Below are positions 4,729 to 16,051 of a DNA stretch of 17,346 nucleotides, piece after piece; the first letter of the stretch is position 1, and every line of letters begins with the position of its first letter. The DNA comes from a virus: the UHGV virus genome UHGV-1699866; one strand, given 5' to 3'. The position numbers and the translations under genes were made by a program. Under the pieces are notes generated by a model, which worked only from the letters and a program-made list of their open reading frames with translations, did no database searches and was not told the DNA's origin.

Positions 4729-5772
4729 TTAAACCACCTTAGCCACCAGATAGGCATCAGCCACACCAGGATTAGGCAGTGGAGATGACTTCATGGCAAC
4801 ATAACGGCCAGCCGGCTTACGAGTTACCCAAGTGTCTGGAACTCGTGGTGACTCAACAATCGTTAGAGTCTTTTCGGCGTCATCTACAAGCTCTACAGCA
4901 CCATACAGCATCGTTCCTCGACCAGGAGAGCCAAAGAGGATCTTATCTTCCGGTACTAATGGTTCAGGTTTTCCTGTTTTATCATTGCGAATAAGTTCGT
5001 CGTAACCATAAAAATCGACACCTTCAAGATTGCCATAATGAGTTACGCCTTCTTCTAACTCTTTAGGCTCAATATACCCAAGCTCTTTTCGGCGATTATC
5101 AAGATATTTAGTTACTGCTTCATTTTTAACGAAGGCATCAACAACTTTTGCGCCCATTACGGCAACACGAGGTGTAAAACCTGAAGTTAGTGATACCCGA
5201 CGTTTCCAGTTGCGAACATTGACTAACGGATCTGATTTTGCTGCACTCCATAAATCATCACCTGTCAGTTCAAGATATGGTTTATCTCCTTCCTCTTCAG
5301 GCCAAAAATAAACTGTGTCATCCACTCCTTCACCAACAATATCAACCTGCCCCGTAAACAAGACTTGTGCACACATCCATTCTTCACGGCGGTTAACCAT
5401 TTCATCAAGCTCAAGCAAATCTTTACCTAATTGCTCGGCGGCTCGTTCTGCTGGCGATTTTGCGTTGTAAATATTCTCACCCGGAAGCCTGTTTAAAAGC
5501 AGCTCGGCTGTTGTTACCAAATCAGGTGCAACAAGTGGTGGCTCCAGAGTTCTCGTTACAAAGCCGCGTCGCTCAACGGTTTTTGAGCCAAAACCTTTAC
5601 CAACAAACGGAGCCATAGTACGGCCACCGCGAACAAAATCCAGATCAACTTTCTTTGTATTAAAGGTCTGAACACCAGGAAAAAAGGTACGAAGAAGAAA
5701 ACGACGAGCCTTGAAATTCTGAATAACAGGCTCAAGCATCGTACGTCGTTCAAAAATATCAATATTCGGCAT
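4729..5772 (-). CDS. Major capsid protein, lambda gpE family
   Basis: 347 aa (lambda gpE is 341 aa); recognisable similarity to gpE segments, e.g. LNRLPGE vs LRRLPDE and C-terminal RVPDTWVTRKPAGRYVAMKSSPLPNP vs RYPKNWVTTGDPAREFTMIQSAPLML. Confidence 0.8.
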   Translation of the reverse strand: MPNIDIFERRTMLEPVIQNFKARRFLLRTFFPGVQTFNTKKVDLDFVRGGRTMAPFVGKGFGSKTVERRGFVTRTLEPPLVAPDLVTTAELLLNRLPGENIYNAKSPAERAAEQLGKDLLELDEMVNRREEWMCAQVLFTGQVDIVGEGVDDTVYFWPEEEGDKPYLELTGDDLWSAAKSDPLVNVRNWKRRVSLTSGFTPRVAVMGAKVVDAFVKNEAVTKYLDNRRKELGYIEPKELEEGVTHYGNLEGVDFYGYDELIRNDKTGKPEPLVPEDKILFGSPGRGTMLYGAVELVDDAEKTLTIVESPRVPDTWVTRKPAGRYVAMKSSPLPNPGVADAYLVAKVV

Positions 5773-5792
5773 AAAAATACGACCTCTTTATA

Positions 5793-6176
5793 TTATGCAG
5801 ATGGATTTTGTTGTGCGGTATTAAGGAATATTCCAACCTTCCGGCAAGCCAGATATACATCGGCAACTTTTGCTGATTCAGGAAGGATAACCGCATGTGC
5901 ATTGAACATTCCGGTCAGCCATGCTGTTCCGACTTGCGCTGAATCAGTCGCATCAATATTGTGTTGAGCGATACAATACGGTTCTTTTGCCTCCCCTTCA
6001 CCAGAGAGATTTATTGGCGCCACAGTGACAACATTTGTTGTCTGATCAATACTGACAAAAGCAAGTAACTCACCCCGTTTTACTTTACCGCTGGCAAGTT
6101 TAATACTTGCTGGAATTGCTGGCATACCACCAGAAATAATCAGATTATCTGGTTCAAATGAAAAAGACTCTCGCAT
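5793..6176 (-). CDS. Putative head decoration protein (lambda D position)
   Basis: 127-aa ORF between protease/scaffold and capsid genes; assignment by position and size only. Confidence 0.45.
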   Translation of the reverse strand: MRESFSFEPDNLIISGGMPAIPASIKLASGKVKRGELLAFVSIDQTTNVVTVAPINLSGEGEAKEPYCIAQHNIDATDSAQVGTAWLTGMFNAHAVILPESAKVADVYLACRKVGIFLNTAQQNPSA

Positions 6177-6185
6177 AAACTCACC

Positions 6186-7274
6186 TTAATTTTTATCGCG
6201 GTTTTTAAATACTGACCCAATAACATTTTTTACTGCTTCAGCCTGTTTGTTGCCGTTGTTTTCTGGTTGATTAACATCAACTGAATCATTCACCTCACTT
6301 GCGTCTTCTTGCCGTTGATTAAGAAAGTTTTTGTTACGCGCTCGCTCTGCATTCATAATTTCCAAAGCAAGTTCAGCCGCAGAAACTCCTGTTTTGAATT
6401 TTGCATTCTTAACCAGGTCGTCATGACCAGGAATCACGCTATTCTCGATTGTTTCAATGCGCTCGCGTTCTGATTTAACGCCCTCGTCTTTACCAGCATT
6501 AAAAACCTGATTGTATAATTCTGGATATTTATTTTTTAATTCATCAAGAGTCACAATATCGTCCTCATTTTGTTCATTTGATTCAGTAGATAACTCATTT
6601 TTATTTTGCGGCAACTTTGCGAGTGAATCAGGTAATTTTGAAAACCTTGATGCTTCAAAAGTTATTCCATTAAGCGAAAGCATCCCTTCCTTTATAGAAG
6701 CGGATAAGCGTATTGGTTTTTCAACTTCGTCAGCAAATCCAAGCTCTACAGCCTCTTCTGCATTTAGCCATGTTTCCTGATCCATTAGTTCAATTAATTT
6801 ATCCTCAGAAAGCCCTGTTTTCTCCTTATATGCAGATAAAATACTATTGCGTATCTTATCCATCATCTCAGCAATATCACGCAATTCATCCGCATCGCCA
6901 GCAGCAAATATCCACGGATTATGGATCATCATCATAGCATTAGATGGGATAATAATTTTATCACCCGCCATTGCAATAATAGTTGCAGCCGATGCAGCAA
7001 TCCCGTCGATATAAACCGTAATATTCGCCTTATGACGCTTTAATGATGAAAGAATAGCTTGAGCAGTAAAAACAGAACCACCATAACTATTAATTTTTAC
7101 GTTGATAGTATTTGATGAAATATCCTTTAATTTATTAACTATGTCAGAAGAAGAAACCTCATCAAATTCACCAATATACCCGTAAATTAAAAGTTCAGCC
7201 GGAGAGTCATCTTCACCCGTGCTATTTTTTATTTCCCACCAATTAGGCATCATCAGTCTCCATATTTTGTTCAT
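6186..7274 (-). CDS. Head maturation protease (ClpP/S49-like serine protease) with C-terminal scaffold-like domain
   Basis: ClpP-like motifs GIAASAATIIAMAGD (catalytic Ser) and MMMIHNPW (His); C-terminal half is charged, low-complexity and coiled-coil-like, as in the lambda C/Nu3 arrangement. Confidence 0.75.
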   Translation of the reverse strand: MNKIWRLMMPNWWEIKNSTGEDDSPAELLIYGYIGEFDEVSSSDIVNKLKDISSNTINVKINSYGGSVFTAQAILSSLKRHKANITVYIDGIAASAATIIAMAGDKIIIPSNAMMMIHNPWIFAAGDADELRDIAEMMDKIRNSILSAYKEKTGLSEDKLIELMDQETWLNAEEAVELGFADEVEKPIRLSASIKEGMLSLNGITFEASRFSKLPDSLAKLPQNKNELSTESNEQNEDDIVTLDELKNKYPELYNQVFNAGKDEGVKSERERIETIENSVIPGHDDLVKNAKFKTGVSAAELALEIMNAERARNKNFLNQRQEDASEVNDSVDVNQPENNGNKQAEAVKNVIGSVFKNRDKN

Positions 7275-8817
7275 TTACCTCAGAAACAGGAGGTGTAATA
7301 AGCCCCAACTCACGGCGAGCATTCTCTTCTCTGCCACAGATTTGTGCGGTTTCTTCCCAGTTAAGACCTGACATTTCAGCCGCTTCTTTTTCACGGGTAG
7401 AGAATGTTTCCTCAACACGCAGTTTTGCAGCTTTGACTTCTTTAAGGGGATCTAATTGGCCTTGTGATGGGCCATACCATTGAGCGCCACTCCATGCAGC
7501 GCGATATTCAGGCCCATAAAAAAAACCAGGGGCAATAACACGACCTTTAGCAACGGCTTCGGCCAACCATTCCTCATAGATCGGTTGGCAAAATGACTGA
7601 ACCATCCAGTCACGTCGCATACGGAACATTTTCCAGGCTTCAAGTAATGCGGCCCTGCTTGCGCTATAACTTGCTGTAAAATGCTTTACCAAGAGTTCGT
7701 AAGGGAGTTCTAAAGCAGCCCCAATTTGACGGCATATGGCGACAACAAAACCATCAAATGCCGTATTTGGTCGCCCGGGATTTGCTGTATCTATCGACTC
7801 ACCTTCACCCAAACTTACTATGGAGCCATTCCCCATTTCTTGGGTGTTATTATCATGGTTATCGATCTGCTCGTACTGAGGGATACCCGATTCACCGACT
7901 GGCCCATCAGGAGCGTCTGTTTTAATAAAGACAGTAAACATCCCTGACACAACCGCAGCAACCAATTCAGCATCGGTGTATCGTCCTAACTGCTTCAATG
8001 CTTCAATTACAGGAGCAAGGACAGGAACGCCACGGCGTTGCCCAGGCCTTTCAAAATCCTGCATGACATGCAGAATATTTCTTCTTCCTGTTTTACTCCC
8101 ATATGCGGGAATACGTTCCCACTTGCGGGTTACAAAACCAGAAGTCCCGGCTGGGTGATGTTTTGCAACCCAGTACGCCACAGGCTCGCTAAATTCACCA
8201 ACCTCTACGCCACCGTAAAGATTTGGTATAAAACGATCCTCTGGATTGCAAACACGATCACCTTCAATTAAATAGACGCACAAATCATATATAACACCCT
8301 TACGCTTAATAACTGGTAGCGCAGCAAATATATCGCCAGATGTTAACGCAGATATTTGGACCAATGATTGCAATTGTCCAAAAGTACACATTCTTGATGC
8401 ATCACAATTTGGAGAATCAGCCCATAATCTAAACTCACGCTCAACATGCTTTTCCCATGCTCGCGCTTCTTCCTGCGTCATCCCCAAGAAATCGGCATCA
8501 ATGTTCGCATTTAGTTTTAAACCGGAACCAACAACGTTTGTCCTGATAGTTTTTATTGCGCCAACAGATAGCGGGTTTCCCATGAAGAGATCACGAGAAC
8601 GCTCACGCAATTTATCTATATTTTTAACAATATCATCATCAGGAGAACCAGCTTTACTAAACCAACCCCTTAATGATTTTTTATGAGTGCTTGCACCATG
8701 ACGTGAATATCCAAGGTTATTAATACCTTCAAGTGCTTCTAACCGTTTTCTTGCCAAAGCTCGATTTAATGCCCTCTGAGGTGAAAACGGCGCAATAACT
8801 CGATCAAGAATATTCAT
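7243..8817 (-). CDS. Portal protein (lambda gpB family)
   Basis: 524 aa (lambda gpB is 533 aa); lies between the W-like gene and the protease; 32-nt overlap with the protease gene. Confidence 0.8.
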   Translation of the reverse strand: MNILDRVIAPFSPQRALNRALARKRLEALEGINNLGYSRHGASTHKKSLRGWFSKAGSPDDDIVKNIDKLRERSRDLFMGNPLSVGAIKTIRTNVVGSGLKLNANIDADFLGMTQEEARAWEKHVEREFRLWADSPNCDASRMCTFGQLQSLVQISALTSGDIFAALPVIKRKGVIYDLCVYLIEGDRVCNPEDRFIPNLYGGVEVGEFSEPVAYWVAKHHPAGTSGFVTRKWERIPAYGSKTGRRNILHVMQDFERPGQRRGVPVLAPVIEALKQLGRYTDAELVAAVVSGMFTVFIKTDAPDGPVGESGIPQYEQIDNHDNNTQEMGNGSIVSLGEGESIDTANPGRPNTAFDGFVVAICRQIGAALELPYELLVKHFTASYSASRAALLEAWKMFRMRRDWMVQSFCQPIYEEWLAEAVAKGRVIAPGFFYGPEYRAAWSGAQWYGPSQGQLDPLKEVKAAKLRVEETFSTREKEAAEMSGLNWEETAQICGREENARRELGLITPPVSEVNEQNMETDDA

Positions 8818-9053
8818 AAATCTCTTATCACCACTCGTTTAATTCGTGGGCCTCGGCGTACACCTGCTGATAATCTTTCTACTTCATTACGCCAGTAATC
8901 CATCTCTTTTCTGACTTCTGATAAATCCGCACGAGTTAACTGCCGCGTACCAAATTTATATGACTGACCGCCAATAGCAATAGCGCGATATGCTTCCCGC
9001 CAGACAGATAACATCTCTCTGGCTTCAGTCAGAGAAAATGCTTCATTGTTCAT
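8814..9053 (-). CDS. Head completion / head-tail joining protein, lambda gpW family
   Basis: 79 aa between terminase large subunit and portal; C-terminal ...GVRRGPRIKR resembles the gpW ...QRRRGPAGF region. Confidence 0.6.
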   Translation of the reverse strand: MNNEAFSLTEAREMLSVWREAYRAIAIGGQSYKFGTRQLTRADLSEVRKEMDYWRNEVERLSAGVRRGPRIKRVVIRDL

Positions 9054-9064
9054 TTATATTTCCT

Positions 9065-10921
9065 CTATATGGTTACGCCTTTACTTATAACTCTACGGCG
9101 TCTTCTACGTATACCTGACGAGTTCTGCACATACACATTACCTCGCATTTCCTGTTCGGCAAGCCAGTTAAAATTAGGGTTCAGAATTTCCATCGCGGCA
9201 GTTGCATAGTTACGGCAATCAAGAGGCTCGTTACGCTCGTAGACTTTCACCCACTTTTCTTTTGTCTGCCCATTTTTATATTCAAATATTTTTTTCTCTG
9301 ATAATAATCCTTTAAAGTATTCGGTATCATATCCTCTGTCAGAATCTAATGGGAAATGCATATAACCAGGACCAGGATCATGTAGTTTAATTCTTGCCAT
9401 GATGGTCCCTTTACCATCATCAACCCCCAAATTAAACAACATAGCACCCACACGGTTATTATTACTTGGCTTTCCTATAAATGGTAAACCTACCCCACCA
9501 CGCCCCCTGATAGAGTATATTCGCCTTGATTCTCTCGGCTTAGTAAAGCGATATACCTCTGTCGTAAAATGCCCACCAGAGTCAATACAAACGGAAGAAA
9601 TCTGTAATTTTCGACCGTCACGGAATGACCAGCTACGGAGTAAGTATTCATCAAGTTGTTTCCAGACAACATCTTGTGCGGGATCACCTGGGAATATTTT
9701 ATATTCTATCCCCCATGACTCCTTACCTTTTCCCCAACCGACCAATTCACAAACTAAATACGTGTCCTGTACGTCAACACCAGCACTTAACAATAAAACA
9801 TCATCTGGTAAAAACTCTTCAAACCTTATTCTGCGTTGCAACAAGTATTCAGGATCGATATCGTCTTTAGCATCCTCTTTCCATGGCTCACCCAGCTTAA
9901 GGTTAATAAACTCCATTAATCCATTTTTATCGCGGTTTCTGGTTGCTTCCGTAAATTCTTCAACCAGCTCTGACAATGCAACCCACGGGGAGTAAAGACT
10001 GTTAATATGAAAACCAACAATACCTTTAACTCCAGTATGTTCAGCTATCCATACCCCCTTCGCCAACCAATCAACGTCTGGTTTACCAGATCCGCGCATA
10101 ATCCCGCCGCACTCACAGCACTCATATCTGGCCGTTTCCGGTAACGCCTCACCTGAATCGCTCTTATCCCATCTGACTTGCGACCATTTCATCACCTGCA
10201 TGGTGCCACAACATGGGCAAGGAACATGGTAGTAACGCTGATCGGAGAGCTTAAACCACTTGTGGATTTTGCTTGTTTCCTCCAAAACAGGAGTAGAAAC
10301 AAAAACTTTCTTACGATTATGAAAGTTGGTAGTACGCTGAATACCTAGTTTTAGTGGGTCGCCCTCCTGCGTCACACCGTAACGATCAATCTCATCAGCT
10401 AACAGTATTCGAATTGGCCTGGATGCAAGACCTGCTGGGGAATTAGCACCAACAAGTGCTATATATCCACCAGCGTAATGCTTCATACGTATAGTCGTGC
10501 TGGACTTTTTGGCTGCACCGCGCCCCTCTTTCCCTTCATGCAGCTTGTGTTTCAAACCAGGGGAATATTTGAACGTCGGATCAATACGCTCTTTTGAAAA
10601 AGCCTCAGCCGCCTCTACCGTTGGATAAATCATCAACTGAGGAGATGGCTCCTGATCTGCAAAGTAACCCATAACATTTAGCTGTAATTCGGATTTACCA
10701 ATTTGCGAGCTACATTGCATCACTACTGTTTCTGTATCAGCGTCACCAATAACATCCATTGGTTCACGCAAATATGGCACTCGGCTTGTACGCCACGGCC
10801 CTGGCTCTGGAGACGTTCCCGGCGCTACATGACGATACTTATCAGCCCATTCGGAAACAGTTAGCCGTGATTTAGGGCGAAGCGCACGGAAAAAAGCGGT
10901 GCTCCATACTGTTTCGCCCAT
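9065..10921 (-). CDS. Terminase large subunit, lambda gpA family
   Basis: 618 aa; Walker-A-like QCSSQIGKSE; VPCPCCG (cf. lambda VACPHCG), CIDSGG (cf. CWDTGG) and NEPLDC (cf. NEALDC). Confidence 0.85.
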   Translation of the reverse strand: MGETVWSTAFFRALRPKSRLTVSEWADKYRHVAPGTSPEPGPWRTSRVPYLREPMDVIGDADTETVVMQCSSQIGKSELQLNVMGYFADQEPSPQLMIYPTVEAAEAFSKERIDPTFKYSPGLKHKLHEGKEGRGAAKKSSTTIRMKHYAGGYIALVGANSPAGLASRPIRILLADEIDRYGVTQEGDPLKLGIQRTTNFHNRKKVFVSTPVLEETSKIHKWFKLSDQRYYHVPCPCCGTMQVMKWSQVRWDKSDSGEALPETARYECCECGGIMRGSGKPDVDWLAKGVWIAEHTGVKGIVGFHINSLYSPWVALSELVEEFTEATRNRDKNGLMEFINLKLGEPWKEDAKDDIDPEYLLQRRIRFEEFLPDDVLLLSAGVDVQDTYLVCELVGWGKGKESWGIEYKIFPGDPAQDVVWKQLDEYLLRSWSFRDGRKLQISSVCIDSGGHFTTEVYRFTKPRESRRIYSIRGRGGVGLPFIGKPSNNNRVGAMLFNLGVDDGKGTIMARIKLHDPGPGYMHFPLDSDRGYDTEYFKGLLSEKKIFEYKNGQTKEKWVKVYERNEPLDCRNYATAAMEILNPNFNWLAEQEMRGNVYVQNSSGIRRRRRRVISKGVTI

Positions 10922-10926
10922 GAGGT

Positions 10927-11478
10927 TTATTCTTCCTGCTTAATAAATCGGGATTCCTGGAGCGCCTGAAGCGCAAAATTAATCTCGTCTTCAATAATGC
11001 GCTCGATCTCCCTGGCTGTTTTGCCTTCACAACGGGGAGCTGCTCTTGGAGCAATACTAAATAAGCGGCTACGCAATTCATTAGCTGCCAGAAATGCATC
11101 ATCCCTGACCGCATCTTTAGCGATGAGAGAGCCTTCCTTTTCTTCAAATTCAAGGCGTTTCAGCTTTGCCTGATAAATTTTTTCTGCGGTCTTAGCCTTG
11201 TTGAATTGCACCGCAACACCGGAAGTACCACCAGCTAATCCGGCATCATCAGCGGGTAACTCTGGTTGTTCCGAAGATATCCCATGCCCTCTTTTTCCAT
11301 TTTCAGCAGATACCTCACGACCAACCTGTCGGCTCGCTTCATAAGCCGCACTGGCTTTATCAAAATCCAGCTTGCCGCTTTTCAGCACTGGAATGCGACC
11401 GGAACGACAGAGCTTCGTAACCATTGCCGGAGAAATACCTTTCCGGCGGGCAAACTCTGACTTACTGACGATGGCCAT
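10927..11478 (-). CDS. Terminase small subunit (Nu1-like, N-terminal helix-turn-helix)
   Basis: Helix-turn-helix SKSEFARRKGISPAMVTKLCRSGRIPV near the N-terminus; directly upstream of the large subunit; ATG at 11478-11476 overlaps the upstream stop (TAATG). Track start at 11487 is TTG. Confidence 0.55.
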   Translation of the reverse strand: MAIVSKSEFARRKGISPAMVTKLCRSGRIPVLKSGKLDFDKASAAYEASRQVGREVSAENGKRGHGISSEQPELPADDAGLAGGTSGVAVQFNKAKTAEKIYQAKLKRLEFEEKEGSLIAKDAVRDDAFLAANELRSRLFSIAPRAAPRCEGKTAREIERIIEDEINFALQALQESRFIKQEE

Positions 11479-12068
11479 TACTTGCAACCATTAGCAAGAT
11501 ACTGAACAAATCCCTCATGCGTTTCATGCGCGTCGTGGTACTGACGATAAACATCCAGCAACAATGCAATTTCCATATCCGTCGCGGGAATACGTTCTTT
11601 ATCAATAGCCAGGTACTTAATTTGAACAACAGGGGAAGAATTATCGTCTTCTTCCTGCGGCTGTTCATCGCTTAACATTTCGTCAAGCTCTGCATCATTA
11701 AACCCAAGCAGATCAATATCAAAATCATCATCCATTAACTCTTTGACTTCTTCGGCCAGAAGCTGCATATCCCAGCCAGCATTTAAGGCCAGCTTGTTAT
11801 CTGCAATCCTGTAAGCCTTCTTCTGTTTTTCAGAAAGGTTACTCAACCGAATCGCCGGAACTTTATCCATTTCCAGAATTTCGGCTGCTGCAAGCCGCCC
11901 ATGCCCCGCAATCAGTTCATTCTTTTCATCGATCAGCACAGGATTAGTGAAACCGAACTCACGGATACTGTTCACCAACTGTTCAACTTGCTCATCTGAA
12001 TGAGTCCGTGAATTTTTGGCATATCTGAGCAACTTACCGACTGGTAAATATTCGATTTTTAGAGCCAT
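11478..12068 (-). CDS. ParB-like nuclease (ParB/Srx N-terminal) domain protein, paralog 1
   Basis: ParB-N signature ...NPVLIDEKNELIAGHGRLAAA...; translationally coupled to the small terminase gene. Confidence 0.7.
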   Translation of the reverse strand: MALKIEYLPVGKLLRYAKNSRTHSDEQVEQLVNSIREFGFTNPVLIDEKNELIAGHGRLAAAEILEMDKVPAIRLSNLSEKQKKAYRIADNKLALNAGWDMQLLAEEVKELMDDDFDIDLLGFNDAELDEMLSDEQPQEEDDNSSPVVQIKYLAIDKERIPATDMEIALLLDVYRQYHDAHETHEGFVQYLANGCK

Positions 12069-12624
12069 TTTTTAACCGCCATAACACAACAGGTTAAAGA
12101 AAACTGTTTAACTTATTGATACTAAAAGAGAAAAATGACGATCTTTTTACTCATGAAAAATCACACAAACCAGCATAATTATCTGATTTTATTAAGTTTT
12201 TATAAGTAAAAAGGATCTTGCGATGGTGTTTTGGTTAAAAGATTGGATGTATTTGCATGATTTATAACGATTTTTATCAGAACAACATCACATTGGTTAA
12301 AGATCTGCGCGTATCTTGATGATCTAAAAGAAAATTTTCCACTTTCTTTTTACCAGCACAAATACAGAAAAAATCACGTTTTCCCGATATTTTTCAATGA
12401 GATGAGTAAATTTCTTTTACCGCAACTTTTAACCTAACTTTTTTCACGTTTAGCTAGCCGAATATCGGGGTTCGAATGACCCGCATCCAACGCTTTTGTC
12501 CAGAAGGACCCAATTCTGCCGGACGATGAAACGATGCTCGTGCTCCCCCACAGACAGCCAGCGAGCGACGCTACAGAACACAGTGAATACACTCTGCATA
12601 ACAACACCATCAACCACACGATGA
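12069..12624. promoter_or_regulatory. 556-bp non-coding region: GC-rich block (about 12435-12620) plus AT-rich block (about 12069-12434) with iterated motifs; candidate cos/pac and promoter region
   Basis: Only sizeable gap in a dense operon; sits immediately upstream of the ParB-like/terminase genes; contains GGTTAAA x5, a duplicated about 45-bp unit and four GATC sites. Confidence 0.4.
12348..12465. repeat. Imperfect direct repeat (two units, about 67-70 bp apart) of form TTTTACC-GCA-C ... TCACGTTT ... CCGA(A)TAT
   Basis: Unit A about 12348-12390 (TCACGTTT at 12374-12381), unit B about 12415-12465 (TCACGTTT at 12444-12451); read directly from the sequence. Confidence 0.5.
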
Positions 12625-13344
12625 TTAACGAGAGAAGGTCTTGGAAAGAATGTCATCAATAGCCTTTGTGACTTCATCAGCAAACGCATCCTCACCAGCA
12701 CGCAGCGCCACGCCATGCCAATCAAGACGCTGCGAATAGTTAGGTTGCTGGATAAACGTAAGGATCAACGTAGGACGCCGCCCAACGCGCTGCCAGACGC
12801 CTGGTTGAAGCGGGTTACTTGTACCAGGTCGAACAACAAAAAACTCCGTAGGCTTGCCCTGACGGCGATTTTGATGCGCATCTCGCTGAACTCTTAGGCC
12901 AGATAAGACCTGCTGTAATTGCCCCCGCGAAATATTCCCGTATTTGTCCAGCTTTGCGCCGGGACCAGGAGCAATCTGCCAGCCGTTAGGCAAATATCCA
13001 CCAGCCCTTAGCGCCCCTTCTGAGCGTTTGTACTGTCGTTGGCCACCTTCGATTTGCGGAGTCAACGTTACAGGGGCTGGCGTTCCTCCCCATTCACGAG
13101 CATACACAATGGCTGTAGGATCACTCTTCTTTGCGGCCAAAACGTAAGTAGAGTTCTGAATCCACGGCGTGGGCCTGTCAAATACCCGATTAATTTCATT
13201 CTTAATCGCAGCCTGAGAAGCCTTTGCCGTTCTGGTTGCCGCAAGCGCCATTGCGAACGGCAATTCGCGTTCTTCAAGGCGCTGGAGTTGTCGTTGAATA
13301 TCCTGAGAAGAAAAATCCATCTTTATCTCAATTCTGTCAGCCAC
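12625..13344 (-). CDS. Hypothetical protein (239 aa), function unknown; third gene of the ParB-methyltransferase cassette
   Basis: GTG start with strong RBS (TAGGAGG, 5-nt spacer), 16 nt after the upstream stop; Gly/Pro/Arg/Gln-rich; GC visibly higher than the structural genes. Confidence 0.6.
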   Translation of the reverse strand: MADRIEIKMDFSSQDIQRQLQRLEERELPFAMALAATRTAKASQAAIKNEINRVFDRPTPWIQNSTYVLAAKKSDPTAIVYAREWGGTPAPVTLTPQIEGGQRQYKRSEGALRAGGYLPNGWQIAPGPGAKLDKYGNISRGQLQQVLSGLRVQRDAHQNRRQGKPTEFFVVRPGTSNPLQPGVWQRVGRRPTLILTFIQQPNYSQRLDWHGVALRAGEDAFADEVTKAIDDILSKTFSR

Positions 13345-13360
13345 CAGCGCCTCCTACACA

Positions 13361-14734
13361 CTACTTAATCAACGGCCGGAAAGCCGCCAGCACATCATCA
13401 GATCGTCCGATTGTTGAACCACCAGGCAACGGCAACTCAAACTCAAAACGAACAGCTTTCTCCAGACTCGCCCAACTAAGGGAATCATCGTTAATGACGT
13501 GCAAATACCAGCTCTTACAGTTGAATATTGACCGCTTAATCCTGAAACCATGTACACGACACAACTGCTTCACTTCCTCATCAGAGTGAAACTTCTGGTA
13601 AAACCAGTGCCCCTTCCGGTACAACGCGGTAAAACCGTCATGATCAATAAAATAAAGCCGGCTTTTGGAACTCGCCGCTTGTGTTTGCTTCAGGACTGTT
13701 TCCAGTTCTCCACGGCTACGGCCAGAAAAGAATATTGACCCACCAGCTTTACACAGGCCTTTCAGAACCGTCAGAACGGACCATTCAGCCTCGACACTAT
13801 CGACCGAGTTCAAAACGCTATCGCAAATCACGTAGTCGTAACGCCCTCGCGTTTTTAAGTCGTCCACCAGCGTATCAATCATCCGGTTTGTTGCGGCCCT
13901 ATCCAGAGTGTTTCCAGCGCCCTTACGGCGGAAAAGCTCGAGATCATGCAGGTTATATCCCTTTGCCCTGAGCATTCGCGCGTAGTCTCCCTGCCCCGAA
14001 CCAAAATCAATTCCTCTTGGCGTCTTGGCAATGATCGGGAGGATCAACGACTCATACAGATTTGATTTCAGGCTGCCACCATTACGCAACCGCATAAGCT
14101 GCGCATACGTCTGGATGTATGTTGTTTTCTCCAGATGAGAATACTCAAATACACCATAAGTTTTATTCAGATAACTTTGGTATTTTTCCTTCTCAACATC
14201 AGGGATCACAAACACCGTTAGCGGTGTGCGCGTCATTTTCGCTGCTAATGCATACTGAGCACAGTGAATAACCTCACCAGACTGAGTAGCAACACAACCA
14301 CCCCACGGACCATACTTGATAACCAGTTCCGCTATGTTCTTTCGAACATATGCCATTTTCGCGCGCATATTGCCTGAGATCTGGCTTGCCGATACCTGAA
14401 CAAAACCATGCTTATCTTCCAGACCGGACACCCTGCAACGCTCATCTCCGCTATCAAAATCCGTTCCGTTATGCAGTTGGTTAAACCGTACTTCGTCGTA
14501 TACCGTCGTTTCACAGGGCAACACATACACCGCAGCACGCGTTATTCCCAACTTACGTAGCGCCTTCGTCCTTTGGTGTCCCGCCACCAGCAAATCGCCG
14601 CGCACTATCAATGGCTTCACAAGCCCCAGCTCCCTGACGCTTTCCGCCAGCCTCGCAAGATCATCCTCACCGATAAAACGCGGGTTATATTCCGCGCCGC
14701 GTAGGTGCGTTATGTCGTAATTGAGGTGAAGCAT
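13361..14734 (-). CDS. Fusion protein: N-terminal ParB/Srx-like domain plus C-terminal class-I SAM-dependent methyltransferase domain
   Basis: N-terminus YNPR...LVKPLIVRGDLLVAGHQRTKALRKLG (ParB-N); C-terminal half has SAM motif I GIDFGSGQGD and YDYVICDSVLNSV; ATG at 14734-14732 overlaps the upstream stop (TGATG). Confidence 0.7.
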   Translation of the reverse strand: MLHLNYDITHLRGAEYNPRFIGEDDLARLAESVRELGLVKPLIVRGDLLVAGHQRTKALRKLGITRAAVYVLPCETTVYDEVRFNQLHNGTDFDSGDERCRVSGLEDKHGFVQVSASQISGNMRAKMAYVRKNIAELVIKYGPWGGCVATQSGEVIHCAQYALAAKMTRTPLTVFVIPDVEKEKYQSYLNKTYGVFEYSHLEKTTYIQTYAQLMRLRNGGSLKSNLYESLILPIIAKTPRGIDFGSGQGDYARMLRAKGYNLHDLELFRRKGAGNTLDRAATNRMIDTLVDDLKTRGRYDYVICDSVLNSVDSVEAEWSVLTVLKGLCKAGGSIFFSGRSRGELETVLKQTQAASSKSRLYFIDHDGFTALYRKGHWFYQKFHSDEEVKQLCRVHGFRIKRSIFNCKSWYLHVINDDSLSWASLEKAVRFEFELPLPGGSTIGRSDDVLAAFRPLIK

Positions 14735-15357
14735 CAGCACACCTCCCCAGCCAGCAATGCGGATACAAATCCGATATAGCTGCCATTATCATCAACATAA
14801 CGAGACACCGCGCAGTCAAAACGATCCGCTTCCTCATCCGTTGCCGGGATTTTATGACCTCCAAATGACAGGTACTGAACTTTTACGCCTGATTTGGCCT
14901 CATCCTTCTCAAATGGGATATCCATACCCTCTGTGTCATCGTAGACTGCCGCACTCAATAAGTTATCCAGTTCGCGCTGAGTAAAACCAATTGAGTCCAG
15001 AGCAAAATCATCGGCCGCAAGATCTGCAAGCTCCGCGCTTAACAACTCTTCATCCCAACCAGCATTCAGCGGAATACGGTTGTCGGCCAGACGATATGCC
15101 TTCTTCTGATTCTCCGTTAGCCCAGCCAGAACAATGCAGGGAACATCATCCATCCCCAACTGAGTGGCCGCAGCAATTCGACCATGACCAGCAATTACAA
15201 CGTTGTTCTCGTCTATCAGGATCGGATTAGTCCATCCGTACTCCTGTATGCTGGCAACAATCTGATCTACCTGCTCCACGGAGTGTGTGCGAGCGTTCTT
15301 TTCATAACCAATCAACACAGAAAGTGGTAAAGAAACCACATTAAGATGTTTTGTCAT
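14734..15357 (-). CDS. ParB-like nuclease (ParB/Srx N-terminal) domain protein, paralog 2
   Basis: ...NPILIDENNVVIAGHGRIAAA...; about half of the first ~125 aligned residues identical to the 196-aa paralog by eye (not computed). Confidence 0.7.
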   Translation of the reverse strand: MTKHLNVVSLPLSVLIGYEKNARTHSVEQVDQIVASIQEYGWTNPILIDENNVVIAGHGRIAAATQLGMDDVPCIVLAGLTENQKKAYRLADNRIPLNAGWDEELLSAELADLAADDFALDSIGFTQRELDNLLSAAVYDDTEGMDIPFEKDEAKSGVKVQYLSFGGHKIPATDEEADRFDCAVSRYVDDNGSYIGFVSALLAGEVC

Positions 15358-15486
15358 GCCGTTTATCCGCTAAAATCCCCTCGCTTGTGCAAGCAAGTGG
15401 GCCTCGGTTTGTATCCACGGCACCCTGTGGGTATGAATGACTGTCGTCAGGTCGCAACTGACGGCGGTCGCCCACCTTCCAGTAAT

Positions 15487-16013: not shown

Positions 16014-16043
16014 AAAATAAAAAGCCCCGCGACACCGCGAGGC
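16014..16043 (-). terminator. Rho-independent terminator
   Basis: Transcript GCCUCGCG-GUGU-CGCGGGGC followed by UUUUUAUUUU (8-bp stem with one G-U pair); lies between the 50-aa ORF stop and the 136-aa gene RBS. Confidence 0.65.
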
Positions 16044-16051
16044 TGTAAGAG

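What the first reader, a model, noticed from the sequence alone, without database searches (positions are those of the whole stretch)
11478..15357. Three ParB-N domains in about 4 kb: two ParB-like paralogs flank the methyltransferase cassette and the non-coding region
The 196-aa protein (coupled to the small terminase gene) and the 207-aa protein (coupled to the methyltransferase fusion) are clear paralogs, sharing for example KN-RTHS-EQV, TNP-LIDE, IAGHGR-AAA and QKKAYR-ADN...LNAGWD. The fusion protein carries a third, more divergent ParB-N domain. The layout looks like a duplication of the terminase-proximal ParB gene that captured or seeded a new operon, with the cos-like region in between. 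Paralogous DNA-binding modules on both sides of a repeat-bearing region suggest they may recognise the iterated motifs there.
Basis: seen in the sequence. Interest (0 to 1): 0.5.

Follow-up and report, generated by a model that had tools for sequence, protein, structure and literature searches.

The report
Two phage ParB-like genes flanking cos
An E. coli phage-plasmid has two related small ParB-like proteins on either side of its DNA-packaging (cos) site, one paired with the terminase and one with an unusual methyltransferase. They are not a local duplication or plasmid-partition proteins, but members of a large phage family that usually sits next to DNA-modifying and DNA-packaging enzymes.

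Summary
ParB1 (196 aa, 11478-12068) and ParB2 (207 aa, 14734-15357) are 48% identical (E 5e-62). The 459-aa protein carries a third ParB-N domain fused to a class I SAM methyltransferase.

- The window comes from a ~47.7-kb E. coli phage-plasmid, and the non-coding gap does hold cos. It has an invariant GGGTCATTCGAACCCC block at the ends of Yersinia phage records, then nine GGTWAAA-type repeats.
- The two ParBs are not sisters. Each groups with outside relatives (bootstrap 92-99%).
- ParB2 plus the fusion is a two-gene module found in eight or more phyla, nearly always just upstream of terminase genes. It is swapped in or out on otherwise 97.7%-identical backbones.
- ParB1 is a core gene overlapping TerS.
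- Both small ParBs are very acidic (pI 4.3-4.5) and lack an HTH, so they are poor candidates for reading the repeats. The basic N-terminus of TerS fits better.

Relatives of these ParBs are fused to, or sit beside, DNA-modification enzymes. The closest known analogue is the ParB activator of phage thymine dioxygenases. My best reading is that they are accessory subunits, possibly NTP-binding, for the methyltransferase (ParB2) and the terminase (ParB1). This mechanism is inferred, not shown. Moderate interest.

The parts
14734..15357 (-). ParB2: a 207-aa small ParB/Srx-fold protein (N-terminal NTP-binding-type domain, acidic helical segment, linker, small C-terminal domain). It is the cognate partner gene of the methyltransferase fusion.
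   Evidence: phrog_620 E 4e-74. 48% identical to ParB1. Its stop overlaps the fusion start. A full-length small ParB lies immediately upstream of the fusion gene in at least 31 of 34 loci from diverse phyla. pI 4.30.
13361..14740 (-). ParB-N + conserved middle domain + class I SAM methyltransferase fusion (459 aa from the GTG; the probable ATG start at 14734 gives 457 aa). ParB-N is about aa 1-95 (roughly 14456-14740). The middle domain is about aa 96-205. The methyltransferase is about aa 206-459 (roughly 13364-14125).
12625..13344 (-). p239: a basic 239-aa protein of unknown function and the last gene before cos. It is a core gene of this phage group.
   Evidence: phrog_1924 E 2.8e-97. No Pfam or PDB match. 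Present directly upstream of cos in all relatives. Homologues are the last gene at the right end of Pseudomonas phages F10, MD8 and JBD68. pI 10.1.
12467..12482 (.). Candidate cosN: GGGTCATTCGAACCCC (read on the minus strand), with dyad symmetry GGGT/ACCC. The probable 12-nt cohesive end GGTCATTCGAAC is at 12470-12481.
   Evidence: Three Yersinia phage records, 99% identical to the window, begin or end exactly here, and their start points differ by this 12-mer. The block is the only strictly conserved non-coding stretch across relatives, including the divergent L061, which differs at one position. Coordinates.
12069..12469 (.). AT-rich cosB-like region (33% GC) with nine copies of RGTWAAARR (core GGTWAAA). 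Copies start at 12069(-), 12092(+), 12143(-), 12205(+), 12233(+), 12295(+), 12346(-), 12413(-) and 12426(-).
   Evidence: Nine copies observed against 0.14 expected in composition-matched shuffles; none of 2000 shuffles reached the observed count. The motif changes to GGTTAACAA/TTGTTAACC, about 10 copies, in the divergent relative L061. GC content.
11478..12068 (-). ParB1: a 196-aa small ParB/Srx-fold protein with the same architecture as ParB2. It is a core gene and its stop overlaps the TerS start.
10927..11487 (-). Small terminase subunit (probable ATG at 11478). Its N-terminal 60 aa are strongly basic and HTH-like.
   Evidence: phrog_57 E 7.4e-42, with weak HTH matches to Cox-like and AbiEi_4 families. 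N-terminal 60 aa have net charge +7 and pI 10.4.
9065..10921 (-). Large terminase subunit, lambda gpA type.
   Evidence: GpA_ATPase E 7.1e-76 and GpA_nuclease E 1.1e-84.

Best explanation
The window is the packaging end of a ~47.7-kb circular E. coli phage-plasmid with a myovirus tail and a lambda-type terminase. In transcription order the layout is ParB2, ParB-N/SAM-methyltransferase fusion, p239, cosN, a repeat array (cosB-like), ParB1, TerS, TerL.

Shown or strongly supported:
- ParB1 and ParB2 belong to one very large family of small, acidic, HTH-less phage ParB/Srx-fold proteins. Each has an N-terminal NTP-pocket domain, an acidic helical segment, a disordered linker and a ~45-aa C-terminal domain.
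- They did not arise by a local duplication.
- ParB2 is the cognate partner of the fusion protein, in a mobile two-gene module that phages of many phyla carry just upstream of their terminase genes.
- ParB1 is a core gene of this phage lineage and overlaps TerS.

Inferred mechanism:
- The small ParBs are accessory or activator subunits, possibly NTP-binding, for basic enzymes that act on DNA. This mirrors ParB176, which switches on the phage thymine dioxygenase 5mYOX176 on double-stranded DNA.
- ParB2 would enable the fusion methyltransferase to modify newly made phage DNA late in infection, just before packaging.
- ParB1 would do an analogous job for terminase at cos.
- The GGTWAAA repeats are most likely read by the basic HTH N-terminus of TerS, as with the lambda cosB R sites, not by the ParBs themselves.
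For: Identity of the element:
- 100% match to plasmid pMB9698_3, which carries RepA, ParA, tail and head genes.

cos:
- Phage record ends fall at an invariant palindromic block.
- The repeats are significant.

Not sisters:
- NJ bootstrap is 92-99% for ParB1+P0122 and 98-99% for the ParB2 clade with P0121/L061.
- The N-terminal module is 55-62% identical to many unrelated members.

Module:
- The same full layout occurs in the divergent L061, whose TerL is 77% identical.
- ParB plus fusion lies upstream of Terminase_2-type or GpA-type terminases in unrelated phages.
- There are 43 genome loci in eight or more phyla. At least 31 of 34 have a full-length small ParB directly upstream.
- At least 18 of 27 first large downstream ORFs are TerL.

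Accessory nature of the cassette:
- L011 and L013 are 97.7% identical from the p239 start onward and unrelated upstream.
- L008 keeps only the last ~95 nt of the fusion gene.

Terminase linkage of the family:
- About 26 of 33 first large ORFs downstream of family members are TerL, of four Pfam types (summed family counts).

DNA-modification linkage:
- Immediate downstream genes include N6_N4 methyltransferase, C5 methyltransferase, Mom, TET-associated glycosyltransferase, PAPS reductase and radical SAM.
- All 19 long family ORFs are ParB-DPPY methyltransferase fusions.
- PADLOC MTase_II matches the small ParBs at E 2e-40 and 3e-37.

Architecture and charge:
- pI is 4.2-5.1 for 25 small ParBs, against a median of 8.85 for 46 fusions.

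NTP pocket:
- Family-invariant N19, R21, G39, G55-H56-x-R58 and N91 (S34 nearly invariant) sit at the positions of the ParB phosphate- and base-binding residues (PMC13229309).

Precedents:
- ParB-dependent 5mYOX, with the same NBD-helices-linker-CTD architecture and no DNA-binding domain. Terminases co-occur in 19% of those clusters (PMC13229309).
- ParB-CTPase/Methyltransf_23 fusions are enriched in phages, and SAM-methyltransferase fusions bind ATP (PMC12704722).
Against: - No experiment here shows a ParB2-fusion or ParB1-TerS interaction, NTP binding, or any DNA modification.
- The methyltransferase domain has no DPPY/NPPY or C5 motifs. Its nearest solved folds are small-molecule and tRNA methyltransferases, so DNA as the substrate is an inference from gene context.
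- In the 5mYOX system, mutating the NTP-pocket residues did not abolish activation, so an NTP switch is unproven even for the analogue.
- Deep branches of the family tree are unresolved (bootstrap below 30%), so a very ancient duplication within an ancestral phage cannot be excluded.
- ParB-N domains fused to methyltransferases have been reported to nick DNA (PMC5512222), which favours a nuclease reading for ParB1.
- The cos assignment rests on database record ends, and those records are flagged circular. It is not based on mapped termini.
Confidence: 0.55

Rival explanations
1. ParB2 arose by duplication of the terminase-proximal parB1 within this phage and seeded the methyltransferase operon. 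Both paralogues are DNA-binding proteins that recognise the iterated motifs in the cos region.
For: - 48% identity over full length, with the same architecture.
- The repeats are real and lie between the two genes.
- The deep nodes of the family tree are unresolved.
Against: - Each protein has closer relatives elsewhere, with bootstrap support of 92-99%.
- ParB2 is closer to fusion-associated ParBs of other prophages (54-56%) than to ParB1 (47%).
- The ParB-plus-fusion pair is conserved in eight or more phyla.
- The cassette is a swapped module on 97.7%-identical backbones.
- Relatives without ParB2 keep the repeats.
- Both proteins are strongly acidic and have no detected HTH.
Confidence: 0.07
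2. They are plasmid-partition ParB proteins, as annotated in some GenBank records ('chromosome (plasmid) partitioning protein'). The repeats would serve as parS centromere sites for the prophage-plasmid.
For: - The element is maintained as a plasmid and encodes a ParA.
- The ParB-N fold is present.
- A repeat array lies nearby.
Against: - TIGR00180 scores 40 and 30 bits against a cut-off of 58.
- The ParA gene lies ~14-17 kb away and has its own small downstream partner.
- The family sits next to terminases of four types, often as the first gene of linear viral contigs.
- The N-terminal module is shared with DNA methyltransferase fusions.
Confidence: 0.04
3. ParB1, and perhaps ParB2, is a ParB-type nuclease or nickase. 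It would assist terminase in cos cleavage or maturation, as HNH proteins do in HK97-like phages, or degrade competing DNA.
For: - ParB-N domains fused to adenine methylases and other ParB/Srx proteins have been reported to nick or cut DNA (PMC5512222).
- ParB1 overlaps TerS, and the family is tightly linked to terminases of four types.
- The canonical GERR box is replaced by an invariant GHGR.
Against: - GpA-type TerL has its own nuclease domain.
- The same family is just as often paired with DNA-modification enzymes.
- The acidic charge makes unaided DNA binding unlikely.
- No nuclease assay exists for this family.
Confidence: 0.17
4. The fusion methyltransferase does not act on DNA. With ParB2 it methylates RNA (for example tRNA), a nucleotide or small molecule, or a protein such as a packaging or capsid component. 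Its position next to terminase reflects late timing only.
For: - The closest solved folds are small-molecule and tRNA methyltransferases such as Trm9, METTL6 and a toxoflavin N-methyltransferase.
- No DNA-methyltransferase catalytic motifs are present in the sequence.
- The ParB/Srx fold also occurs in kinases and sulfiredoxin.
Against: - Small ParBs of this family are otherwise fused to, or sit next to, bona fide DNA-modifying enzymes.
- The fusion is basic, pI 9.1.
- The experimentally tested ParB-partner precedent acts on DNA (PMC13229309).
Confidence: 0.17

Closest known systems
ParB activators of phage thymine dioxygenases (ParB176 with 5mYOX176; O'Toole et al., PNAS 2026, PMC13229309)
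   Same: - A small phage ParB with an N-terminal NTP-type domain, a short helical segment, a disordered linker and a C-terminal domain, and no DNA-binding domain.
- It is encoded next to a DNA-acting enzyme, shows cognate specificity, and the clusters often lie near terminases.
- The pocket residues correspond: N14/R16/S29/R56 in ParB176 and N19/R21/S34/R58 in ParB1.
   Different: - The partner here is a SAM methyltransferase that carries its own ParB-N domain (ParB2), or the small terminase (ParB1), not a TET/JBP dioxygenase.
- No activity data exist.
- Sequence relatedness to ParB176 could not be tested, because its sequence is not held.
ParB-N / DPPY (N6/N4) DNA methyltransferase fusions of phages and plasmids (phrog_498; PADLOC MTase_II; B. 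cereus Bce_0392)
   Same: The first ~135-150 aa of ParB1 and ParB2 match the N-terminal module of these fusions at 45-60% identity, including the ADN...LNAGWD helical segment. These fusions are also often the first gene before terminase.
   Different: ParB1 and ParB2 end in a ~45-aa C-terminal domain instead of a methyltransferase. The fusion in this window uses a different, more divergent ParB-N and a Methyltransf_23 class I domain without DPPY.
ParB-CTPase fold / Methyltransf_23 fusions catalogued by Kaljevic et al. (PNAS 2025, PMC12704722)
   Same: The same domain pair, PF02195 + PF13489, was reported as enriched in phages and prophages. Bacterial SAM-methyltransferase fusions in that study bound ATP.
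   Different: That survey does not mention terminase at all (0 occurrences). In the sections read it does not describe the small-ParB partner gene or the conserved middle domain either. No function has been assigned.
Canonical partition ParB (Spo0J, P1 ParB, KorB, Noc)
   Same: ParB/Srx N-terminal fold with a conserved arginine in the GxxR box and the N-x-R motif.
   Different: - No HTH DNA-binding domain and no ParA-binding motif.
- Not next to parA.
- GERR is replaced by GHGR.
- Strongly acidic.
- TIGR00180 scores below its cut-off.
Lambda cos (cosN plus cosB R sites bound by gpNu1) with a gpA terminase
   Same: GpA-type TerL. A small terminase with a basic HTH N-terminus. A symmetric nicking-site candidate with a 12-nt end, followed by iterated short motifs between cosN and the terminase genes.
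   Different: An extra ParB gene lies between cosB and TerS. The sequences are unrelated to lambda cos. The termini have not been mapped experimentally.

Membership tests
ParB/Srx superfamily (Pfam PF02195 ParB_N) | A significant match to the PF02195 profile | tested here: met
   ParB1 scores 33.7 bits (cut-off 26.3). ParB2 scores 23.9 and the fusion 24.3, just below the cut-off at E 3-4e-5. All three match ParB PHROGs and solved Spo0J, Noc or ParB chains.
ParB/Srx superfamily (Pfam PF02195 ParB_N) | The ParB/Srx alpha+beta fold | tested here: met
ParB/Srx superfamily (Pfam PF02195 ParB_N) | A conserved arginine in the GxxR box plus the upstream N/Q-x-R phosphate-binding motif | tested here: met
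   ParB1 has N19-x-R21 and G55-H56-G57-R58, invariant across 25 family members. The fusion has N19-P-R21 and G54-H55-Q56-R57, invariant across 46 members.
Partition ParB (type Ia, TIGR00180) | A central HTH DNA-binding domain | tested here: not met
Partition ParB (type Ia, TIGR00180) | Encoded in an operon with parA | tested here: not met
   The only ParA gene of the plasmid lies ~14-17 kb away and has its own 82-aa downstream gene. Family members are adjacent to terminases instead.
Partition ParB (type Ia, TIGR00180) | CTP-dependent loading at parS and spreading | not testable with these tools
   This needs biochemistry or ChIP.
ParB-dependent phage DNA-modification systems (5mYOX/ParB type) | A small ParB with NBD, short helical segment, linker and CTD, and no DNA-binding domain | tested here: met
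   ParB1 AlphaFold model: NBD 1-93, helices 101-132, low-confidence linker ~133-150, CTD 151-192. Architecture as described in PMC13229309.
ParB-dependent phage DNA-modification systems (5mYOX/ParB type) | The adjacent partner is a TET/JBP-type dioxygenase | tested here: not met
   The partners here are a SAM methyltransferase fusion and TerS. Other family members do sit next to TET-associated glycosyltransferase, Mom, C5 and N6/N4 methyltransferases.
ParB-dependent phage DNA-modification systems (5mYOX/ParB type) | The partner enzyme needs the ParB for activity on double-stranded DNA | not testable with these tools
   This needs co-expression and nucleoside analysis.
N6/N4 DNA methyltransferases fused to ParB-N | A (D/N)PP(Y/F) catalytic motif and a PF01555 domain | tested here: not met
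   None of the three proteins has a PF01555 hit or a DPPY motif. By contrast, 19 long relatives have an invariant DPPY.
ParB-CTPase / Methyltransf_23 fusion proteins of phages | PF02195 N-terminal to PF13489 in a single polypeptide | tested here: met
   PF13489 at 31.9 bits (cut-off 27) over aa 233-400, and PF02195 over aa 9-70. The architecture is conserved in 715 homologues.
Lambda-like cos packaging system | A gpA-type large terminase | tested here: met
   GpA_ATPase E 7.1e-76 and GpA_nuclease E 1.1e-84.
Lambda-like cos packaging system | Defined cohesive termini at a conserved site | tested here: inconclusive
   Record ends of three Yersinia phages fall at the invariant GGGTCATTCGAACCCC block and are offset by 12 nt. 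The termini were not physically mapped, and the records are flagged circular.

The most novel reading that the evidence does not exclude
ParB-fold proteins could act as NTP-gated adaptors that couple genome modification and genome packaging in tailed phages. ParB2 would engage the fusion protein's own ParB-N domain, as a heterotypic version of ParB N-domain engagement, to load a non-canonical methyltransferase onto DNA and install a modification not yet described. ParB1 would do the same for the small terminase at cos. That would be the first ParB-type nucleotide switch in a viral packaging motor, and it would explain why this family sits in front of terminases of four unrelated types across many phyla.
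Probability: 0.15. Interest if true: 0.75.

Novelty: new variant of a known kind. Interest (0 to 1): 0.4.

Why it matters
- Thousands of phage genes are labelled 'ParB-like partition protein' or 'ParB-like nuclease' with no known role. The profile search found 43,580 cluster representatives for this family.
- This locus puts two members side by side with different partners, a methyltransferase fusion and a small terminase, on an E. coli element that can be manipulated genetically. That makes partner specificity directly testable.
- If ParB2 activates the fusion, the ParB-activator principle shown for thymine dioxygenases would extend to methyltransferases, and might reveal a new nucleic-acid modification.
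- If ParB1 works with terminase, it adds a component to cos-type packaging.
- On the practical side, the result corrects misleading 'partition' annotations and gives a candidate cos site for a widespread family of clinical E. coli phage-plasmids. The ParB1-TerS segment was found in 72 of 5,426 complete genomes.

Tried and rejected
- **Possible fourth ParB domain.** The middle domain of the fusion (aa ~100-200) repeats the strand-helix-strand-strand-helix-strand-helix order of ParB-N in the model. However, hhalign against ParB-N profiles gave probability below 4%. A profile search of PDB sequences and a Pfam scan found nothing. It remains an unverified lead.
- **L024 as a natural TerS swap.** TerS there is only 49% identical, with the same ParB1 and repeats, which looked like a way to tell which protein reads the repeats. 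The gene turned out to be broken by frameshifts, so it is uninformative.
- **Context of P0122.** The viral-contig scan for P0122, the nearest outside relative of ParB1, found no locus, so its context is unknown.
- **ParB176 sequence.** The supplements of PMC13229309 are not held, so ParB176 could not be aligned with ParB1 or ParB2.
- **First tree attempt.** The Biopython attempt timed out. I replaced it with my own NJ plus bootstrap script. No maximum-likelihood tree was possible.
- **Literature.** Searches for a tested function of terminase-proximal ParB genes found only annotation-level mentions.
- **p239.** No Pfam, NCBIfam or PDB-sequence match.
- **Promoters.** The sigma-70 scan found nothing on the coding strand in the non-coding region. 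This fits late, activator-dependent transcription but is not informative.
- **Partition function.** Considered and rejected; see the rival explanations.

Full report
**What the window is.** All long ORFs lie on the minus strand. The 5-kb stretch around the finding is 100% identical to circular ~47-50 kb E. coli plasmids such as pMB9698_3. It is 99% identical to Escherichia phage vB_EcoM-613R2 and to three Yersinia phages. The plasmid record carries RepA, a ParA, toxin-antitoxin genes, lysis genes, a contractile tail and a lambda-type head and packaging module, so it is a phage-plasmid. In transcription order the region reads:
- ParB2 (15357..14734)
- ParB-N/methyltransferase fusion (14740..13361)
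- p239 (13344..12625)
- a 556-nt non-coding gap (12624..12069)
- ParB1 (12068..11478)
- TerS (11487..10927)
- gpA-type TerL (10921..9065)

**Checking the observation.** ParB1 and ParB2 align end to end at 48% identity (E 5e-62), and all the quoted motifs are present. The fusion's N-terminus is a weaker but real ParB-N domain:
- 28-33% identity to the small ParBs over 50-74 aa
- Pfam E 3e-5, just under the gathering score
- phrog_620 E 2e-14
- matches to solved Spo0J/ParB chains

The ParB2 stop overlaps the fusion start (TGATG) and the ParB1 stop overlaps the TerS start (TAATG).

**The non-coding region is cos.**
- The three Yersinia phage records end or start inside the gap, and their start points differ by exactly GGTCATTCGAAC.
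- Aligning the gap from eight relatives shows one strictly conserved block, GGGTCATTCG(A/T)ACCCCG. It has dyad symmetry and persists even in a relative whose TerL is only 77% identical.
- In window coordinates the block is 12467-12482 and the 12-mer is 12470-12481.
- Between it and parB1 lies a 33%-GC stretch with nine RGTWAAARR copies, against 0.14 expected. None of 2000 composition-matched shuffles reached that count.
- In the divergent relative L061 the iterated motif is instead GGTTAACAA/TTGTTAACC, about ten copies. That is the behaviour expected of protein-binding sites co-evolving with their binder.
- One copy lies in a ~100-nt stretch that is absent from the Yersinia phage vB_YpM_44 record, so that copy appears dispensable.

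**Are the two ParBs a local duplication?** No.
- A profile of the pair finds 43,580 cluster representatives (3,975 at E of 1e-30 or better).
- The N-terminal ~135 aa is 55-62% identical to many unrelated members, so the 57% seen between ParB1 and ParB2 in that part is not special.
- In NJ trees of full-length members, ParB1 orthologues group with an outside representative, P0122 (92% and 99% bootstrap). ParB2 orthologues group with P0121/L061 (99% and 98%). The two clades are never sisters, although deeper nodes are unresolved.
- Outside its own clade, ParB2 is closest to the small ParBs that accompany fusion genes in other enterobacterial prophages (54-56%). ParB1 is only 47%.
- Most relatives (ParB1 79-86% identical) have p239-cos-ParB1-TerS-TerL but no ParB2 or fusion.
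- L011 and L013 are 97.7% identical from the first bases of p239 onward and unrelated upstream. L008 keeps only the last ~95 nt of the fusion gene.
- The full two-ParB layout is also found in the divergent L061.
- In complete E. coli genomes the cassette accompanies the ParB1-TerS backbone in 66-71 of 72 cases.

ParB1 is therefore a core gene. ParB2 plus the fusion is an old, exchangeable accessory module.

**The ParB-plus-fusion module.**
- The fusion family (phrog_5475) has 715 detected homologues of constant length and architecture.
- Look-ups and a genome scan show it in Enterobacterales, Alphaproteobacteria, Myxococcales, Bacillota, Planctomycetes, Chloroflexi, Chlorobi, Bacteroidia and Kiritimatiellae.
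- In at least 31 of 34 loci a full-length small ParB lies directly upstream, often overlapping. Some lineages have two or three small ParBs, or two or three tandem fusion genes, so several ParB-N domains within a few kb is a recurring feature of these cassettes.
- In at least 18 of 27 loci the first large downstream ORF is a large terminase of GpA, Terminase_3 or Terminase_6 type. Examples are L099 (an E. coli lambdoid prophage with Terminase_2) and L101 (GpA).

**The small-ParB family in general.**
- In distant viral contigs, about 26 of 33 first large ORFs downstream of a family member are large terminases of four Pfam families (summed family counts). The ParB gene is often the first gene of the contig or phage record.
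- The gene immediately downstream is a small terminase in some cases. In others it is a DNA-modification enzyme: N6/N4 methyltransferase, C5 methyltransferase, Mom, TET-associated glycosyltransferase, PAPS reductase or radical SAM.
- All 19 long family ORFs are ParB-DPPY DNA methyltransferase fusions.
- PADLOC's type II methyltransferase model matches ParB1 and ParB2 over its first ~157 positions.

**Structure and chemistry.**
- ParB1 (pLDDT 90) has a ParB/Srx domain (1-93), helices (101-132), a low-confidence linker and a small beta-beta-alpha-alpha C-terminal domain (151-192).
- Family-invariant residues (N19, R21, G39, G55-H56-x-R58, D90-N91; S34 nearly invariant) sit at the positions of the ParB phosphate- and base-binding residues. 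The catalytic Glu of GERR is replaced by His.
- ParB1 and ParB2 are strongly acidic (pI 4.54 and 4.30, net charge -19 and -20), as are all 25 family members examined (pI 4.2-5.1).
- By contrast the fusion (pI 9.1, family median 8.85), p239 (pI 10.1) and the first 60 aa of TerS (net +7) are basic.

**Comparison with what is known.**
- Kaljevic et al. (PMC12704722) catalogued ParB-CTPase/Methyltransf_23 fusions as phage-enriched and found that SAM-methyltransferase fusions bind ATP. The paper never mentions terminase, and the sections I read do not describe the partner ParB.
- O'Toole et al. (PMC13229309) showed that small phage ParBs with exactly this NBD-helices-linker-CTD architecture, and no DNA-binding domain, are required activators of a subclass of thymine dioxygenases on double-stranded DNA. 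They show cognate specificity, and terminases co-occur in 19% of such clusters.
- ParB-N fused to an adenine methylase has been reported to nick DNA (PMC5512222).

**Mechanism I commit to.**
- Shown: the family membership, the module structure, the stop-start overlaps and the cos context.
- Inferred: ParB2 is the activator or loading subunit of the fusion methyltransferase, which modifies phage nucleic acid, most likely DNA, late in infection before packaging.
- Inferred: ParB1 plays the analogous accessory role for terminase at cos.
- Inferred: the repeats are TerS sites.
- The plasmid-partition reading is rejected. There is no HTH, ParA is distant with its own partner, and family members occur next to terminases in many phage genomes and viral contigs.
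- A nuclease role for ParB1 and a non-DNA substrate for the methyltransferase remain live rivals.

**Verdict.** The locus is an instructive variant of a recently recognised kind, ParB-fold partners of phage DNA-acting enzymes. Interest is moderate.

Noticed in passing
window 12625-13344 (minus strand): p239 (basic, pI 10.1, no Pfam or PDB match, PHROG 'minor tail protein') is always the last gene before cos in this phage group. Its homologues are also the last gene at the right genome end of Pseudomonas phages F10, MD8, JBD68 and LPPA36. Weak homologues precede the ParB gene in L029 and L035. It may have a cos-proximal or early-injection role rather than being a tail protein.
   Followed up: partly
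window 13361-14740, fusion aa ~100-200: In the AlphaFold model, the conserved middle domain of the fusion repeats the secondary-structure order of a ParB-N domain. Its invariant motifs are EVRFNQLHNGTDxD, GPWGG and H159/Q162/Y163. It could be a fourth, degenerate ParB/Srx-like unit, but profile comparisons were not significant.
   Followed up: partly
L003 (Yersinia phage vB_YpM_44) versus window ~12240-12345: This phage record lacks about 100 nt of the AT-rich repeat region, including one TTTAACC repeat copy. That part of the array therefore appears dispensable.
   Followed up: no
L117, L119, L122, L125, L126 (Chloroflexales); L112, L121, L123 (Planctomycetes and others); L137, L138 (Bacteroidaceae): Some lineages carry two or three tandem paralogues of the ParB-N/methyltransferase fusion, or two or three small ParB genes in a row before it. 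The ParB module has expanded repeatedly.
   Followed up: no
L024 6580-7140: The small terminase gene of this relative is interrupted by several frameshifts, while its neighbours are intact. This is either a decaying prophage or sequencing error.
   Followed up: partly
L099/L100 5997-6233: In an E. coli lambdoid prophage, an Acb2/Tad1-type anti-CBASS gene sits directly upstream of the ParB-fusion pair. This is a hint that the slot before terminase collects counter-defence genes.
   Followed up: no
L097/L098 (Bradyrhizobium) 5690-15404: Here the ParB and fusion genes are separated by an opposite-strand ORF and no terminase gene was called in the ~15-kb locus. GGACT/AIG2, Amidoligase_2 and an N6_Mtase-like gene lie nearby, so this is a different, possibly modification-related, context.
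   Followed up: no
window 16023-16044 (minus strand): A strong terminator-like hairpin (9 bp stem, 7 GC pairs, T-run) lies just upstream of the likely true start of the 159-aa ORF (phrog_1935). It may mark the start of the transcription unit that contains ParB2 and the fusion.
   Followed up: no
L001 (plasmid pMB9698_3) 35449-36036, just beyond the window's high-coordinate end: The element also encodes an MT-A70 family methyltransferase about 2 kb upstream of ParB2, so it carries at least two methyltransferases near the packaging end.
   Followed up: no
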